Shown here: positions 41,611-49,229 of the stretch, one piece after another
How the letters are laid out: each line of letters begins with the position of its first letter
Position numbering within the stretch: position 1 is the stretch's first letter
DNA from: the human T2T-CHM13v2.0 reference genome, Homo sapiens
Assembly: GCF_009914755.1 (NCBI RefSeq)
Contig: NC_060947.1
Reading direction: 5' to 3' (one strand)
Length of the DNA: 64,000 bases
The notes under the pieces: model-generated
The model's input: the letters and a program-made list of their open reading frames with translations, nothing else
What the model was told of the DNA's origin: nothing
The model's database searches: none
Made by a program: the position numbers and the translations under genes

Positions 41611-41997
41611 GGAGGAAAGTAGATCTTTAGGACTTGAGTGAGGAAAAGTTTGCAAGTCTGGACAGAAGGGAAAAGTGTTCCTGAGAGACTAGCTTTGGGT
41701 AGGGGACGTGGAAGAAAAGAATAGCTTTTTTTAATTTCTTCTACTCTTAAAAAGCTTTTTTCTCTTCATCCAAGCTGACCAGCACAATTGGGATACCCAC
41801 ACTGTCCCTCTCCAGCTCTAGCTCTCTCCTTATAAAGCGTCAAGATTATGTCAATTGGTCAGAGCCAGTCAGGGATTTTGTGTGAGTGCCGAAGGAACTG
41901 CAGGAGCCAGAGAAGAATAAAACTGTGTAGAGTCAGCCTGGCTTCCAGCTTGTTCTAACTGGCCCTGAGTCTTTGGATGCAGCCTGCAGAGGCTGCA
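41611..41997 (+). pseudogene. COL4A5: Retrotransposed copy of COL4A5 exon 1 (5' UTR plus signal-peptide CDS at 41917-41997), inactivated
   Basis: 41917-41997 translates IKLCRVSLASSLF*LALSLWMQPAEAA versus COL4A5 [27 protein letters not shown] as I recall it (20/27 identical, no indels). Upstream CTCTAGCTCTCTCC...CAAGATTATGTCAATTGG..AGAGCCAG matches the recalled COL4A5 5' UTR. Confidence 0.9.
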
Positions 41998-42034
41998 AGT
42001 GAGATTCCTTAACAGTGTTCTAGAAGCAGCTGAT

Positions 42035-45000
42035 GGAGATAGGGTGGCCAACTAGATGCAGCCAAGAATAACTTCTTCCATTGAGATACAAGACCATAAA
42101 GAAAATTGACACACTCCAAGCAGATTTTAGGAAGGAATGCATTGAGACAGGACAGAAGGTGGATGTGGACCCTGGACTGAAGGGTGAGGAAGCTGAGAAC
42201 CCTGTATGGGGTTGCTGAGCACCAGGACTCAATCCTGGTCCCAAGCGACTCCTGGGGAAGGAGTGAGTTAAATAGGCATGGAGTGGCCCACTCTTGCCAT
42301 GCTCCATCAGAATCCTAGCTGCAGGAAACCCCATGACACCATGAACATTTGAGTCAGCAGGAAGAGCTGCTCGGAGAGATGTCAGGGACAGGACTCCAGC
42401 CTCCACAGAATCCACAGGGTTTGGTTTGAGAATGGCTGGAACACATCCAGGGATGCCCATCCCTCTAGTCTTGCCATGATCCTCCAGGTGACTTTGTCCT
42501 TTGTTGACTGTCAGACTTTGACAGAACAGGGCTTTCTTGCCCGTGAGACAGGGCCAGTCTGATCTGAGCACTGCCCTGTCTGATGGCCTCTACCAGGGCC
42601 CCTGCCTCATTTCACCCACTTGCAGCACAGCTTCAGATGCCAAATTAGAGTGTTTCCCAGAGGCCATTGCCATAGCTCTTTTGCTGACAGACCCCACCTG
42701 TCAGAGAGCTTTCGAAGATGAGTCCTAACAGTGCACACTTGCCTGAGGCCTCCCTCACCACTTTACTGGCATGCACTCACCTGCAACCTATCCTTACCAC
42801 TTTGCCAGTGTGCGTACATGTGTGGACTTCACTGTACTGACACCGTTGGTGCATGTGCACATGTGGACCTCACCACCACTATCTTGTCCCTGCTGGCACA
42901 CAATACATAAACCCGGCTGCACCACTGTACTGCTGCTGCCTCATGCACATGTGCAGACCATGTTGCCCTGCTGCTGCTGGTGCATATGTGCCCACAGACC
43001 CCGACACGTTGCTGCCCTGCTGCTGCTGATGCACATGCATTAACACAGACCCTGCTGCCACGACTCTGATGAAGAACTTTTTCTGGTACCTCCCAGTGGA
43101 GTGTTGTTGCTAGTGGACCAGGAACACAATGGACCCACCAGTGCAGCAAATGTTTAACCTCAAGAGACCAGAAACAAAGACATGGGCCTGGTCCTAGCCC
43201 TCCAGGATTAAAGTATGCAGCCTAAGAGTGCTGACATGAGCCTTAGTCCCTGAAATTATCCAGAAATAAAGCCAGTCAACCAAAGTCAACTTGTATCACA
43301 GTCACACCCTAAAGGGCATCAAAGAATATAAAAGCAAAAAGCTCCATCTAAAGAACAACAACTTTAAAGATTAAAGGAACATCAGCCCACACAGTTGAGA
43401 AAGAAACAGTGCAGGAACTCTGGCATCTCTAAAAGCCAGAGTGTCGTCTTACCTCCAAACAACTGCACTACCTTCCAAGCAATGGTTCTTAACCAGACCA
43501 AAGTGTTTAAAATTACAAACATAGAATTCAGAACCTGGATCCAGATCATCGAGATTTAAGAGAAAGTGGAAATCCAATCAAAGAATCAAAGAAATCCAGT
43601 AAAGCAATTCAAGAGCTGAAAAATGAAACAGCCATTTTATAAAGAAACAAACTGATCTGACAGAGCTGAAAATCTCACTACAGAAATTTCATAATACAAT
43701 CAGAAGTATTAACAGCAGAATAGACCAAGCCGAGGAAAGAATCTCAGAGCTCAAAGATTGGTTCCTTGAATCAACTCAGTCAGACAAAAATAAATAAAAA
43801 ATAATAGAAAACAACGAAAAAAAACCTCTGAGAAATATGGGATTATGTAAAGAGATTAATCTATGACTCACTGGCAACCCTGAAAGAAAGAGAGAGAGAG
43901 AGAGATAGTGAGCAAGCAGTATGAAAAATATATTTGAGGATATTGTTCTTGAAAATTTCTCCAGCCTTGCTAGAGAGGTCAACTTTCAAATTCAAGAAAT
44001 TCAGAGAACCTCTGTGAGACACTACACAAGATTACCATTCCAAAGACACATAGTCATCAGATTCTCTAAGGTTAACATGGCAGAAAAAAATATTAAAGGC
44101 ACCGAGAATGATTGGGTAGGTCACCTACAAAGGGAATCCCATGAGACTAATAGCAGACCTTTCAGCAGAAACCCTACAAGCCACAGGAAATTGGGGTACT
44201 ATATTCGGCATTCTTAAAAAAGAGAAATTCCAACCAATAATTTCATATCCAGTCAAAATAAGCTTTGTAAGCAAAGGATAAATAAAATCCTTTTCAAACA
44301 AGCAAATGCTAAGGGAATTCATTACCACGAGATCTGCCTTAAAATAGGTCTTTAAGAGAGTGCTAAACATGGAGAAAAAAGACTGTTACCAGTCACCACG
44401 AAAATACACTTTAGTATTATACATAAACCATTGAAGCTATAAAGGAGCAGCACAATCAAGTCTGCATAACAACAAGCTAGCAACACTATGAAAGGATTAA
44501 ATTTGCACATATCAATATTAACCTTGAACATAAAAGGGCTAAATGCCCCACTTAAAAAGTGGCAAGTTGATATAGAAGCAAGACCCAACTGTATGCTATC
44601 GTTAAGAGATTTGTCTGACATGCAATGACACCTATAGGCTTAAAGTAAAGGGATGGAGAAAGATCTATTAAGCAAACTGAAAACAAAAAAGAGCAGGGGG
44701 TTCTATTCTTAATTCAGACAAAACAGACTTTAAAGCAACAACAATCAAAAAGGACAAAGAAGGGCATTACATTATGATAAAGAATTCAATTCAACAAGAA
44801 CACTTAACTATTTTAAATATATATGCATCCAACATTGGGGCACCCAAATTCATTAAAAAAGTTCTTAGAGACCTATGAAGAGACTAAGATAACCACATAG
44901 TAATAATGGGATACTTCAGTGTATCACTGATGGTATTGCCCAGATCACTGAGGCAGAAAACTAACAAAGATACTTGGGACCTAAGCTCAACACTTGACAA

Positions 45001-48000: not shown

Positions 48001-48857
48001 CTGTAATCCCAGCCCTTTGGGAAGCCGAGGTGGGCAGATCACTTGAGATCAGGAGTTCGAGACCAGCCTGGCCAACATGGCGAAACCCTGTCTCTACTGA
48101 AAATACAAAAATTAGCCAGGTGTGGTGGTGCATGCCTGTAATCCCAGCTACTCAGGAGGCTCAGGCAGGAGAATCGCTTGAGTCTGGGAGGCAGAGGTTG
48201 CAATGAGCTGAGATCATGCCACTGCACTCCAGCCTGGGTGACAGAATGAGACCTGTCTCAAAAAAATAAAATAAAATAAAATAAAATAGAACTACCATTT
48301 GACCCAGGAATCCCACTACTGGGTATATACCCAAAGGAGTATAAATCATCCTACCATAAAGACACATGCATGTGTATATTCATTGCAGCACTATTCACAA
48401 TAGCAAAGACATGGCATCAACCTAGATGTCCATCAACAGAGGACTGGATAAAGAAAAGGTGGTACTTATATACCATAGATTACGATGCAGCCATAAAAAT
48501 GAATGAGATTATGTCTTTTGCAGCAGTATGGATGAAGCTATGGGCCATTATCCTAAGCAAATTAATTGAAGAATAGAAAACCAAATACTGCATGTTTTCA
48601 CTTATAAGTGGGAGCTAAACATTGATTACTCATGGACACAATGAAGGGAACAATATACACTTGGGCTTACCTGAGGGTGGAAGGTGTGTGGAGGGTGAGG
48701 AATGAAAAACTACCTGTAAAGTACTATGCTCACTACTTGGGTGATGAAATAATTTCTGTACCAATTATACACATTTTACCCATGGTAATACACATTTTAC
48801 CCATGTAACACACCTATACATGTACCCCCTGAATCTAAAATAAAAGTTGGAAAAAAT
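42035..48857 (+). mobile_element. Full-length L1PA16-like (L1PA15-17) LINE-1 with decayed ORF1 and ORF2
   Basis: 5' GGAGATAGGGTGGCCAACTAGATGCAGCC; ORF1 relic (RHIVIRFSKV); ORF2 from ~44488 with RT motifs ([22 protein letters not shown]); 3' UTR GAAAAACTACCTG...GTACTATGCTCACTAC...AAATAAAAGTTG. Confidence 0.92.
47973..48286 (+). mobile_element. AluSz/Sx inserted into L1 ORF2
   Basis: Dimeric Alu, (AAAAT)n tail, degenerate TSD TAGAATTAC / TAGAACTAC. Confidence 0.93.
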
Positions 48858-49229
48858 ACATAAAATTTTTGTGTCTTTTTTCCTGTTAATCTGTCTTTTG
48901 TCAGTTTATTTTGCAGTGCCCTTTGTACTGAACATAAGAGGGTAAAGGGAATGATTTTTTCTTCCTATATAGACTTGTTAATAACCCCACACATCTGGGC
49001 TTGAGATGTGCAGTTTTCTCAAGTACTTCCTTGAGACGAGCAGTTTTAAAAAACTTCAGAGAAAGCCCAGAGGTGGGAAGGCTTGGAGCAGCTCAAAGTA
49101 CCTGAAGTGGGATGCTGTTGGCAGTAGTCTGATCTGGATGAAATATGATGTGGGACACCAAAAATACCTACAGAGACCACAAAGAGGCCACTGATGCAAT
49201 GCGGAAGTGACAAAGCATTGGGCTAGGAT

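What the first reader, a model, noticed from the sequence alone, without database searches (positions are those of the whole stretch)
41611..48873. Fossil COL4A5 exon1-L1 chimeric retrotransposon (5' transduction from a collagen IV promoter)
Seen: a MER34-type LTR is split at its AATAAA by a 7.25-kb insert bounded by a target-site duplication (ATAAAATTTGTG 41599-41610; ATAAAATTTTTGTG 48860-48873). The L1 5' UTR starts only at ~42035, so ~424 bp of non-L1 sequence lies inside the TSD. 41917-41997 reads IKLCRVSLASSLF*LALSLWMQPAEAA. Recalled: this is the COL4A5 (collagen IV alpha-5, Xq22) signal peptide, the preceding sequence matches its 5' UTR, and similarity stops after 81 coding nt, where I recall exon 1 ends. 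Inference: an early-primate transcript from the COL4A5 promoter ran into a sense L1PA16-like element, probably in intron 1, and was reverse-transcribed to its 5' end as one unit. 5' transductions are much rarer than 3' ones. I do not know whether this instance is already described.
Basis: partly seen in the sequence, partly recalled or inferred. Interest (0 to 1): 0.92.

Follow-up and report, generated by a model that had tools for sequence, protein, structure and literature searches.

The report
COL4A5 exon 1 fused to L1
An ancient full-length L1 jumping gene on the human X chromosome carries the first exon of the collagen gene COL4A5 at its front, and a short spliced-in intron piece shows its parent L1 once sat inside that gene.

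Summary
A 7.26-kb insert (41611-48859) with a 12-bp target-site duplication splits an interspersed repeat. It consists of: (1) 387 nt matching one other place in the genome, exon 1 of COL4A5, from a transcription start to the last exon base; (2) 37 nt that are neither exon 1 nor L1; (3) a full-length, decayed, sense L1 starting at its first bases.

New here: the 37 nt match COL4A5 intron 1 at 27 of 37 positions without gaps, starting at intron position 3031, directly behind a pyrimidine-rich tract and AG. None of 3000 shuffles reached 27. An L1-endonuclease-like site lies 13 nt before the 3' end of that stretch. The modern intron has no L1 there.

Best reading (0.72): a COL4A5-promoter transcript spliced exon 1 to a cryptic acceptor 37 nt upstream of a sense intronic L1 that has since been lost. 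It ended at the L1 poly(A) site and was retrotransposed once. No other copy exists.

First-exon/L1 chimeras are a published class: 17 cases in Cell Genomics 2026. COL4A5 is not in that paper's text or readable tables. This is a new member of a known kind. Its spacer argues for cis-splicing rather than trans-splicing in this case. The names L1PA16 and MER34 and the 'early primate' date could not be tested.

The parts
41380..41610 (.). Left part of the host interspersed repeat. It extends further left than the stretch tested.
   Evidence: 220 candidate copies in the genome, 40 scored, at 71-78% identity.
41599..41610 (+). Left target-site duplication, ATAAAATTTGTG. It is preceded by CAA, so the cleavage context is AA/ATAAAA.
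   Evidence: in 4 of 5 uninterrupted copies found by both flank searches, the left and right matches overlap by exactly these 12 bp.
41611..41916 (+). Copy of the COL4A5 5' UTR, from a transcription start 298 nt upstream of the ATG in the modern gene.
   Evidence: homology to C23:106877370 onward starts at the first base behind the TSD.
41917..41997 (+). Copy of the 81 coding nt of COL4A5 exon 1 (signal peptide). The start codon is now ATA and there is one in-frame stop. It ends at the exon 1 / intron 1 boundary.
   Evidence: 20 of 27 residues are identical to the source. The source continues with gtaagt; the window does not.
41998..42034 (+). 37-nt spacer. It is derived from COL4A5 intron 1 positions 3031-3067 (C23:106880779-106880815), the stretch between a cryptic 3' splice site and the 5' end of the lost source L1. 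Its last 13 nt are the predicted TSD of that source L1.
   Evidence: ungapped 27/37, next best 22/37, 0 of 3000 shuffles reach 27. The match is directly preceded by a pyrimidine-rich tract and AG. The site is single-copy in the genome. An EN-like CT/AAAA site lies 13 nt before the 3' end of the stretch.
42035..48859 (+). Full-length, heavily decayed L1 in sense orientation: a long 5' UTR, ORF1 and ORF2 remnants, a 3' UTR, AATAAA at about 48838-48844 and an A-rich tail remnant at 48851-48859.
   Evidence: the 5' end coincides with that of 29 other copies; only short open frames remain. Pfam hits; 3' end.
43912..44217 (+). ORF1 remnant (L1 RBD-like domain).
   Evidence: PF02994, E 8.5e-17, 61.7 bits (cut-off 22.4).
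46391..46690 (+). ORF2 reverse-transcriptase remnant.
   Evidence: PF00078 RVT_1, E 7.2e-08, 32.8 bits (cut-off 29.6). A weaker piece lies at 45931-46137 (17.7 bits, below cut-off).
47974..48290 (+). Later Alu insertion inside the L1, with an (AAAAT)n/A tail. It is not part of the original chimera.
   Evidence: sequence; this stretch alone matches many places, in both orientations, within the first 80 kb of COL4A5.
48860..48873 (+). Right target-site duplication, ATAAAATTTTTGTG. It has two extra T compared with the left copy.
48874..48980 (.). Right part of the host repeat.
   Evidence: 247 candidates, 40 scored. Matches run to query positions 57-122 (mostly about 92-112), i.e. at the furthest to window about 48981.

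Best explanation
This is a spliced 5' transduction from an L1 that once sat in COL4A5. Around the time this L1 family was active, a full-length sense L1 lay in COL4A5 intron 1, immediately after intron position 3067. It had inserted at a CT/AAAA endonuclease site. A transcript from the COL4A5 promoter spliced the exon 1 donor to a cryptic acceptor 37 nt upstream of that L1. It ran through the L1 and was polyadenylated at the L1's own signal. The chimeric RNA still encoded ORF1p and ORF2p and was copied to its capped 5' end by target-primed reverse transcription into a repeat at the present site, making a 12-bp TSD. The copy produced no detectable daughters. It decayed and later received an Alu. 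The source L1 is absent from the modern gene. It was either never fixed or was lost. Shown: the anatomy, the exon 1 identity, the splice-type junction, the intron 1 origin of the spacer, and the absence of the source L1. Inferred: that the L1 sat exactly there, the order of events, the date, and why the source was lost.
For: (1) There was one insertion event. One TSD pair encloses the whole unit, and the flanks are contiguous in 4 of 5 uninterrupted host-repeat copies. There is no A-run or second TSD between the parts.
(2) The exon 1 segment runs from the first base after the TSD to the last exon base, and the source then has gtaagt.
(3) The next 37 nt match intron 1 positions 3031-3067 at 27/37 without gaps. 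The second best match in the 118.9 kb from the start of intron 1 to the first Gly-X-Y exon is 22. Of 3000 shuffles, 0 reach 27 and 2 reach 26. The search space was fixed before looking.
(4) The match starts right after ...cctctgtatctgtatctAG. AG frequency in the intron is 6.1%. The tract has 13 of 18 pyrimidines, which puts it in the top 11.6% of 7221 intron AGs.
(5) The site is single-copy, so the match is not due to a repeat.
(6) The L1 part begins at the family's first bases.
(7) In the modern intron a CT/AAAA site lies 13 nt before the end of the 37 nt. Only 2.3% of intron positions have a YT/AAAA site 7-20 nt upstream, and 3.6% a YT/ARAA site.
(8) The direction is gene to copy: 10 of 10 source CpGs are TG, CA or TA in the copy.
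(9) The ages agree. Copy versus source K2P is 0.14 (0.10 without CpG sites). The L1 5' UTR pairwise K2P is 0.28, about 0.14 per lineage.
Against: No sense L1 5' UTR of this family is found in the 160 kb of COL4A5 examined, which cover the region upstream of the first Gly-X-Y exon, intron 1 included. The source is therefore inferred, not seen. The last ~98 kb of the gene could not be fetched.
The 37-nt match is only 73% identical. Genome-wide, such a match would not be unique; its weight rests on the restricted search space.
In the modern intron the 37 nt are followed by GT (frequency 5.6%). They could therefore be a small cassette exon joined to a separate L1 RNA.
The published class includes cases of exon ends at donors joined to L1 base 1 with no intronic L1, for which trans-splicing was proposed (PMC13174262, passages read).
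The window reads AGTGAG directly after the exon. This resembles a donor and fits an unspliced reading, although that test gave 149 of 2000 shuffles at or above the observed score.
Confidence: 0.72

Rival explanations
1. Joining in trans. A COL4A5 RNA consisting of exon 1 plus a 37-nt cryptic exon, cut at that exon's donor, was joined to the 5' end of an unrelated L1 RNA. The joining could have been by trans-splicing, by RNA ligation, or by an end-to-end template jump of ORF2p onto the free 3' end of a splicing intermediate. No L1 ever sat in COL4A5.
For: The 37 nt are bounded by AG on one side and GT on the other in the modern intron. The L1 part starts at its first bases, as in published cases where exons end at donors and no intronic L1 exists; 15 of 17 gene loci lack one (PMC13174262, passages). 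No source L1 is found in the 160 kb examined.
Against: Apart from the GT, the putative donor has a very poor context (GCT|GTTGAA). Judged against splice-site consensus as I recall it, it lacks G at -1, purine at +3 and G at +5. The copy also has T at -1. A GT occurs by chance at 5.6% of positions. Trans-splicing needs an acceptor upstream of L1 base 1, which a normal L1 RNA does not contain. An EN-like site 13 nt upstream of the junction, expected under a real insertion, occurs at only 2.3-3.6% of intron positions by chance.
Confidence: 0.17
2. Unspliced read-through, the classical 5' transduction. The source L1 lay only about 40-60 nt downstream of exon 1, and the 37 nt are the diverged start of intron 1.
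For: The window reads GCA-A-GTGAG after the exon against GCG-GTAAG in the gene, and a TCCTT follows in both.
Against: The anchored alignment needs four gaps, including one of 19 nt. It is not better than chance: 149 of 2000 shuffles reach its score (311 of 2000 with an offset error). The ungapped match at intron position 3031 is far stronger. A priori, 60 nt of a roughly 119-kb intron is a very small target.
Confidence: 0.06
3. The parts are not one event. Either the COL4A5 fragment and the L1 arrived separately (a DNA-level duplication or two retrotranspositions), or the exon 1 similarity is chance.
For: None found.
Against: E-value 8.6e-102 for the exon 1 match. A single TSD pair encloses everything. 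The removal of exactly 3,030 nt between a GT and an AG shows an RNA intermediate. There is no poly(A) or TSD at the inner junctions.
Confidence: 0.02

Closest known systems
[quoted passage not shown] Source: Cell Genomics 2026;6(5):101165, PMC13174262, preprint 10.1101/2025.02.02.635956. I read passages and Table S5 part 1, and searched all four spreadsheets for terms.
   Same: First exon(s) in sense orientation. The gene part ends exactly at a splice donor. The L1 is near full length. A TSD and a poly(A) enclose the unit. A long downstream intron is present: about 119 kb from the exon 1 donor to the first Gly-X-Y exon here, against their median of 48 kb.
   Different: COL4A5 has 0 occurrences in the main text (for the preprint text) and 0 in the four spreadsheets. 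Table S5 has 17 transcript rows, none COL4A5. Three PDF supplements could not be read. This case carries a 37-nt intron-derived spacer that places the source L1 in the same gene, so it speaks for cis-splicing, a question that paper leaves open for most cases.
RAP1GDS1/L1PA2 cis-spliced chimeras, from the same paper (passages).
   Same: Host-gene 5' exons are cis-spliced to an intronic L1, which was then retrotransposed using the host promoter.
   Different: There the source L1 still exists, lacks part of its own promoter, and gave two daughters. Here the L1 is full length from base 1, the acceptor lies in the flanking intron, the source is gone, and there is one copy.
SVA_F1 (MAST2 exon 1 spliced onto SVA). 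Recalled from the literature. A related paper on splicing in SVAs, PMC6139936, was seen only as a search listing and abstract.
   Same: A host gene's first exon was acquired by splicing and carried as a 5' transduction.
   Different: SVA is non-autonomous, the acceptor lies inside the element, and the chimera founded a subfamily. The COL4A5-L1 chimera has no other copy.
U6/L1 and other template-switch chimeras. Recalled (Buzdin and colleagues), and described in PMC13174262 passages.
   Same: A cellular RNA copied to its 5' end lies upstream of L1 sequence within one TSD pair.
   Different: In those cases the L1 part is usually 5'-truncated and the junction is unrelated to splice sites. Here both inner junctions sit at splice-site or insertion-site landmarks and the L1 is full length.

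Membership tests
LINE-1 insertion by target-primed reverse transcription | Target-site duplication flanking the unit | tested here: met
   12-bp TSD. Flank matches overlap by exactly 12 bp in 4 of 5 uninterrupted host-repeat copies.
LINE-1 insertion by target-primed reverse transcription | A-rich endonuclease-type cleavage site and a 3' poly(A) after AATAAA | tested here: met
   The context is AA/ATAAAA. AATAAA lies at about 48838-48844, followed by an A-rich remnant before the right TSD. The tail is short and decayed.
LINE-1 insertion by target-primed reverse transcription | L1 ORF1 and ORF2 (RT) sequence in one orientation | tested here: met
   PF02994 at 61.7 bits and PF00078 at 32.8 bits, both over the cut-off, on the + strand. 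All frames are broken.
First-exon-L1 5' chimera (class of PMC13174262) | [quoted passage not shown] | tested here: met
   The start could not be compared with an annotated TSS, because no annotation of that locus is on hand.
First-exon-L1 5' chimera (class of PMC13174262) | The gene segment ends exactly at a splice donor | tested here: met
   The source reads GCTGCG|gtaagt, and homology ends at that base.
First-exon-L1 5' chimera (class of PMC13174262) | Near full-length L1 | tested here: met
   It starts where 29 other full-length copies start. Length is about 6.5 kb without the Alu.
Cis-spliced 5' transduction from an intronic L1 | Sequence between exon and L1 maps to an intron of the same gene behind an acceptor | tested here: met
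   27/37 at intron 1 position 3031, behind a pyrimidine-rich tract and AG. 0 of 3000 shuffles reach 27.
Cis-spliced 5' transduction from an intronic L1 | The source L1 is present at that intron site | tested here: not met
   No sense L1 5' UTR of this family in 160 kb that include the whole of intron 1. The modern site reads on without an L1. Loss is inferred.
Template-switch chimera (U6/L1 type) | Junction unrelated to splice sites, and usually a 5'-truncated L1 | tested here: not met
   The junctions sit at the exon 1 donor and behind an intronic AG, and the L1 is full length.
   No Dfam or Repbase library is on hand. Only divergence was measured: pairwise K2P 0.28 among 30 copies of the 5' UTR.
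   The only finding is that the flanks belong to a repeat with at least 220 candidate copies.
COL4A5 exon 1 | First exon of the plus-strand member of the head-to-head collagen IV pair on the X, encoding the alpha-5(IV) chain | tested here: met
   PF01413 exons lie at C23:106594600-106598177 (-) and 107125154-107133026 (+), with the hit between them. The plus-strand NC1 exon has 5naz_A, collagen alpha-5(IV), as its best single-chain match at 155.8 bits, against 149.1 for alpha-1. The head-to-head arrangement on Xq22 is stated in the PMC2120565 abstract.

The most novel reading that the evidence does not exclude
The chimera is the only surviving record of a transient gene-trapping L1 allele of COL4A5, the X-linked gene that is mutated in Alport syndrome (recalled). 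That L1 lay in sense orientation 3 kb into intron 1. It captured exon 1 splicing through a cryptic acceptor and ended transcripts at its own poly(A) site. It would probably have been purged in hemizygous males, but it fired once before it was lost. If so, the 37-nt footprint gives direct sequence evidence that first-exon-L1 chimeras can arise by cis-splicing from unfixed 'ghost' source elements rather than by trans-splicing. That bears on the mechanism left open for most of the 17 published cases.
Probability: 0.55. Interest if true: 0.6.

Novelty: new member of a known kind. Interest (0 to 1): 0.45.

Why it matters
The capture of host first exons by L1 is one proposed route by which L1 acquires new 5' UTRs and promoters. 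The class was catalogued only recently, and its mechanism (cis-splicing or trans-splicing) is unsettled, because the source L1 is usually missing. This case is old and was not found in the published catalogue's main text or readable tables. It carries an internal footprint of 37 nt from the same gene's intron, bounded by an acceptor and by an endonuclease-type site. That footprint locates the vanished source element to the base. This offers a way to re-examine the other cases: their short 'untemplated' stretches between exon and L1 could be searched against the downstream intron of the donor gene. The copy also preserves an old transcription start and the state of the 5' UTR of a disease gene, and it shows that the COL4A5 promoter was active in a germline or early-embryo cell at the time.

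Tried and rejected
1. I looked for the source L1 in COL4A5. BLAST of the L1 5' 3.7 kb against 160 kb from exon 1 onward found no sense 5' UTR. It found only older or 5'-truncated L1 pieces, for example sense 3' fragments at about C23:106940889-106947917.
3. I tested whether the 37 nt are the retained start of intron 1. The result was not significant: 149 of 2000 shuffles. An earlier run with a one-base offset error gave 311 of 2000.
4. I looked for sibling copies that share the 37 nt or the exon 1 segment. None were found. In one search, the 39 non-self matches all begin at query position 34 or later. Only 40 of 544 candidates were scored there, so siblings that carry the spacer alone cannot be excluded.
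5. As a control, 23 of 300 random 37-mers from the window reached 27/37 somewhere in the 160 kb. These come from shared repeats. The intron site itself is single-copy, so this does not explain the match.
6. A search of papers for the signal-peptide string found 0 papers.
8. Khan et al. 2006 could not be read. No held paper gave usable ages for L1PA16.
9. One Pfam hit, Cas_Csm6_HEPN (E 0.0061, below cut-off), was treated as noise.
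Full report
**What is there**

Window 41611-48859 is a single 7.26-kb insertion into an interspersed repeat. The left flank ends with ATAAAATTTGTG (41599-41610) and the right flank begins with ATAAAATTTTTGTG (48860-48873).

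Whole-genome searches with the left flank (41380-41610) and the right flank (48860-49000) each hit a repeat family: 220 and 247 candidates, 40 scored in each. Five genomic copies appear in both lists. In 4 of the 5 the two matches overlap by exactly 12 bp: C6:3827584-3827904, C1:97717530-97717847, C5:68023257-68023578 and C1:12224186-12224461. In the fifth (C6:15862174-15862482) the left match stops 15 nt short of the junction. The flanks are therefore contiguous in uninterrupted copies, and the 12 bp are a genuine target-site duplication.

**The 5' segment is COL4A5 exon 1**

A search of the whole assembly with 41611-42034 gave two candidates, both scored: the window itself and C23:106877370-106877747 (+), at 80% identity over query 1-386, E 8.6e-102. 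The alignment starts at the first base behind the TSD. It ends at the last base before gtaagt in the source.

The source has an ATG followed by 81 nt, encoding [27 protein letters not shown]. The window copy reads IKLCRVSLASSLF*LALSLWMQPAEAA, with 20 of 27 residues identical.

The source lies between collagen IV NC1 (PF01413) exons on the minus strand at C23:106594600-106598177 and on the plus strand at C23:107125154-107133026. This is the head-to-head COL4A6/COL4A5 arrangement described for Xq22 (PMC2120565, abstract). One plus-strand NC1 exon has collagen alpha-5(IV), 5naz_A, as its best single-chain PDB match, at 155.8 bits against 149.1 for alpha-1.

The direction is gene to copy. All 10 CpGs of the source are TG, CA or TA in the copy. 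Because the segment has only one other copy in the genome, it cannot be part of any L1 subfamily consensus.

**The L1**

A search with 41998-42400 found 544 candidates, of which 40 were scored. The 39 non-self matches begin at query positions 34-88, and none covers positions 1-33.

An alignment of 29 of these copies with their upstream flanks shows that the copies become homologous to one another at a common point. That point corresponds to window 42035/42036 (GGAGA...). The window has a small deletion just downstream of it. The L1 is therefore full length.

Pfam finds the L1 ORF1 RBD-like domain at 43912-44217 (61.7 bits) and reverse transcriptase at 46391-46690 (32.8 bits) on the plus strand. 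All frames are broken. An Alu with an A-rich tail was inserted later, at about 47974-48290. The 3' end has AATAAA and a short A-rich remnant directly before the right TSD.

**The 37 nt in between**

Window 41998-42034 is neither exon 1 nor L1. The first Gly-X-Y exon lies at C23:106996651, so intron 1 is wholly covered.

An ungapped scan of the plus strand gave one outstanding match:
- 27 of 37 at intron position 3031 (C23:106880779-106880815); the next best is 22.
- Of 3000 shuffles of the 37-mer, 0 reach 27 and 2 reach 26.
- The match begins directly after ...cctctgtatctgtatctAG. AG makes up 6.1% of dinucleotides in the intron. With 13 of 18 pyrimidines upstream, this AG is in the top 11.6% of the intron's 7221 AGs.
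- The site is single-copy in the genome, so the match is not due to a shared repeat.
- As a control, 23 of 300 random window 37-mers reached 27 somewhere in the 160 kb through shared Alu or L1 sequence. This is why the single-copy check matters.

Exactly 3,030 nt between a GT and an AG are therefore missing from the copy. That is the signature of splicing.

**Where the source L1 sat**

In the modern intron the 37 nt end 13 nt after a CT/AAAA site (ATCT|AAAAGCAAATGCT). Only 2.3% of intron 1 positions have a YT/AAAA site 7-20 nt upstream, and 3.6% a YT/ARAA site. The L1 part also starts at its first base. Both facts fit a full-length L1 that had inserted right there, with a 13-nt TSD.

The modern intron reads on without any L1. 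No sense L1 5' UTR of this family occurs anywhere in the 160 kb. The source is thus inferred and is absent today.

**Rivals**

(a) The 37 nt are followed by GT in the modern intron. They could therefore be a small cassette exon whose donor end was joined in trans to an L1 RNA. The published class contains such donor-to-L1-base-1 junctions without an intronic L1 (PMC13174262, passages). Against this reading: GT occurs by chance at 5.6% of positions. The rest of the donor context is very poor when judged against the consensus as I recall it. A normal L1 RNA also has no acceptor before its base 1.

(b) Unspliced read-through, with an L1 about 40-60 nt into intron 1. The window reads AGTGAG after the exon, but the anchored alignment to the intron start is not better than chance (149 of 2000 shuffles).

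(c) Separate events or chance. These are excluded by the single TSD pair, the E-value and the precise intron removal.

**Age**

The copy differs from the source at 46 of 365 aligned sites: K2P 0.14, or 0.10 without CpG sites. The L1 5' UTR differs from 29 other copies by K2P 0.285, and those copies differ among themselves by 0.277, about 0.14 per lineage. The two parts are thus equally old.

With a neutral rate of about 2.2e-9 per site per year (recalled), this gives roughly 60-70 million years. That is only a rough figure.

**Comparison with what is known**

A 2025 preprint, published in Cell Genomics in 2026 (PMC13174262), catalogues 17 L1 insertions in hg38 with mRNA or lncRNA sequence at the 5' end. 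Most have first exons in sense orientation and near full-length L1s. Six end exactly at splice donors. The donor exons precede long introns. The authors leave the choice between cis-splicing and trans-splicing open, because 15 gene loci have no intronic L1 (passages).

COL4A5 has 0 occurrences in the preprint's main text and 0 in the four spreadsheet supplements. Table S5 has 17 transcript rows, none of them COL4A5. Three PDF supplements could not be read. Two word searches for a COL4A5-L1 chimera or retrocopy found nothing relevant.

The instance therefore appears to be undescribed, but the kind is known. What this case adds is the intron-derived spacer, which places the vanished source L1 in the same gene.

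**Verdict**

This is a new member of a known kind, of moderate interest.

Noticed in passing
window 47974-48290: A sense-strand Alu with an (AAAAT)n/A tail is inserted into the 3' part of the L1. It is flanked by AGAATTACT / AGAACTACC-like short repeats.
   Followed up: partly
window 48766-48810: Short tandem duplication in the L1 3' UTR: ...atacacattttacccatgg / taatacacattttacccatg...
   Followed up: no
window 41776-41797 versus L002:1680: The exon 1 copy holds 22 nt (TGACCAGCACAATTGGGATACC) that are absent from the modern COL4A5 5' UTR. The modern gene in turn has an extra CT-rich run (L002 about 1617-1630) that the copy lacks (alignment). Either could be a later indel, and the copy may preserve an older state of the 5' UTR.
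   Followed up: no
L002:1700-1745 (C23:106877569-106877614) and window 41832-41870: TATAAA and an inverted CCAAT (ATTGG) lie inside the transcribed 5' UTR as defined by the retrocopy, 55-100 nt upstream of the ATG. This hints at a second, downstream start site in COL4A5. I did not compare it with annotation.
   Followed up: no
C23:106940889-106942769 and 106944555-106947917 (L039-L040): Two sense-strand, 5'-truncated L1 3' fragments in COL4A5 intron 1, 73-75% identical to the window's L1. One is interrupted by an Alu. They are not the source, because they have no 5' UTR.
   Followed up: partly
PMC13174262, Table S5, first row (chr3:94442167-94449213, ZNF681): By eye, the L1 5' end printed for this published chimera resembles the old L1 family seen here. 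An 11-nt stretch between exon and L1 is listed there as 'untemplated', with the donor 'undetermined'. It is a candidate for the same intron-footprint test.
   Followed up: no
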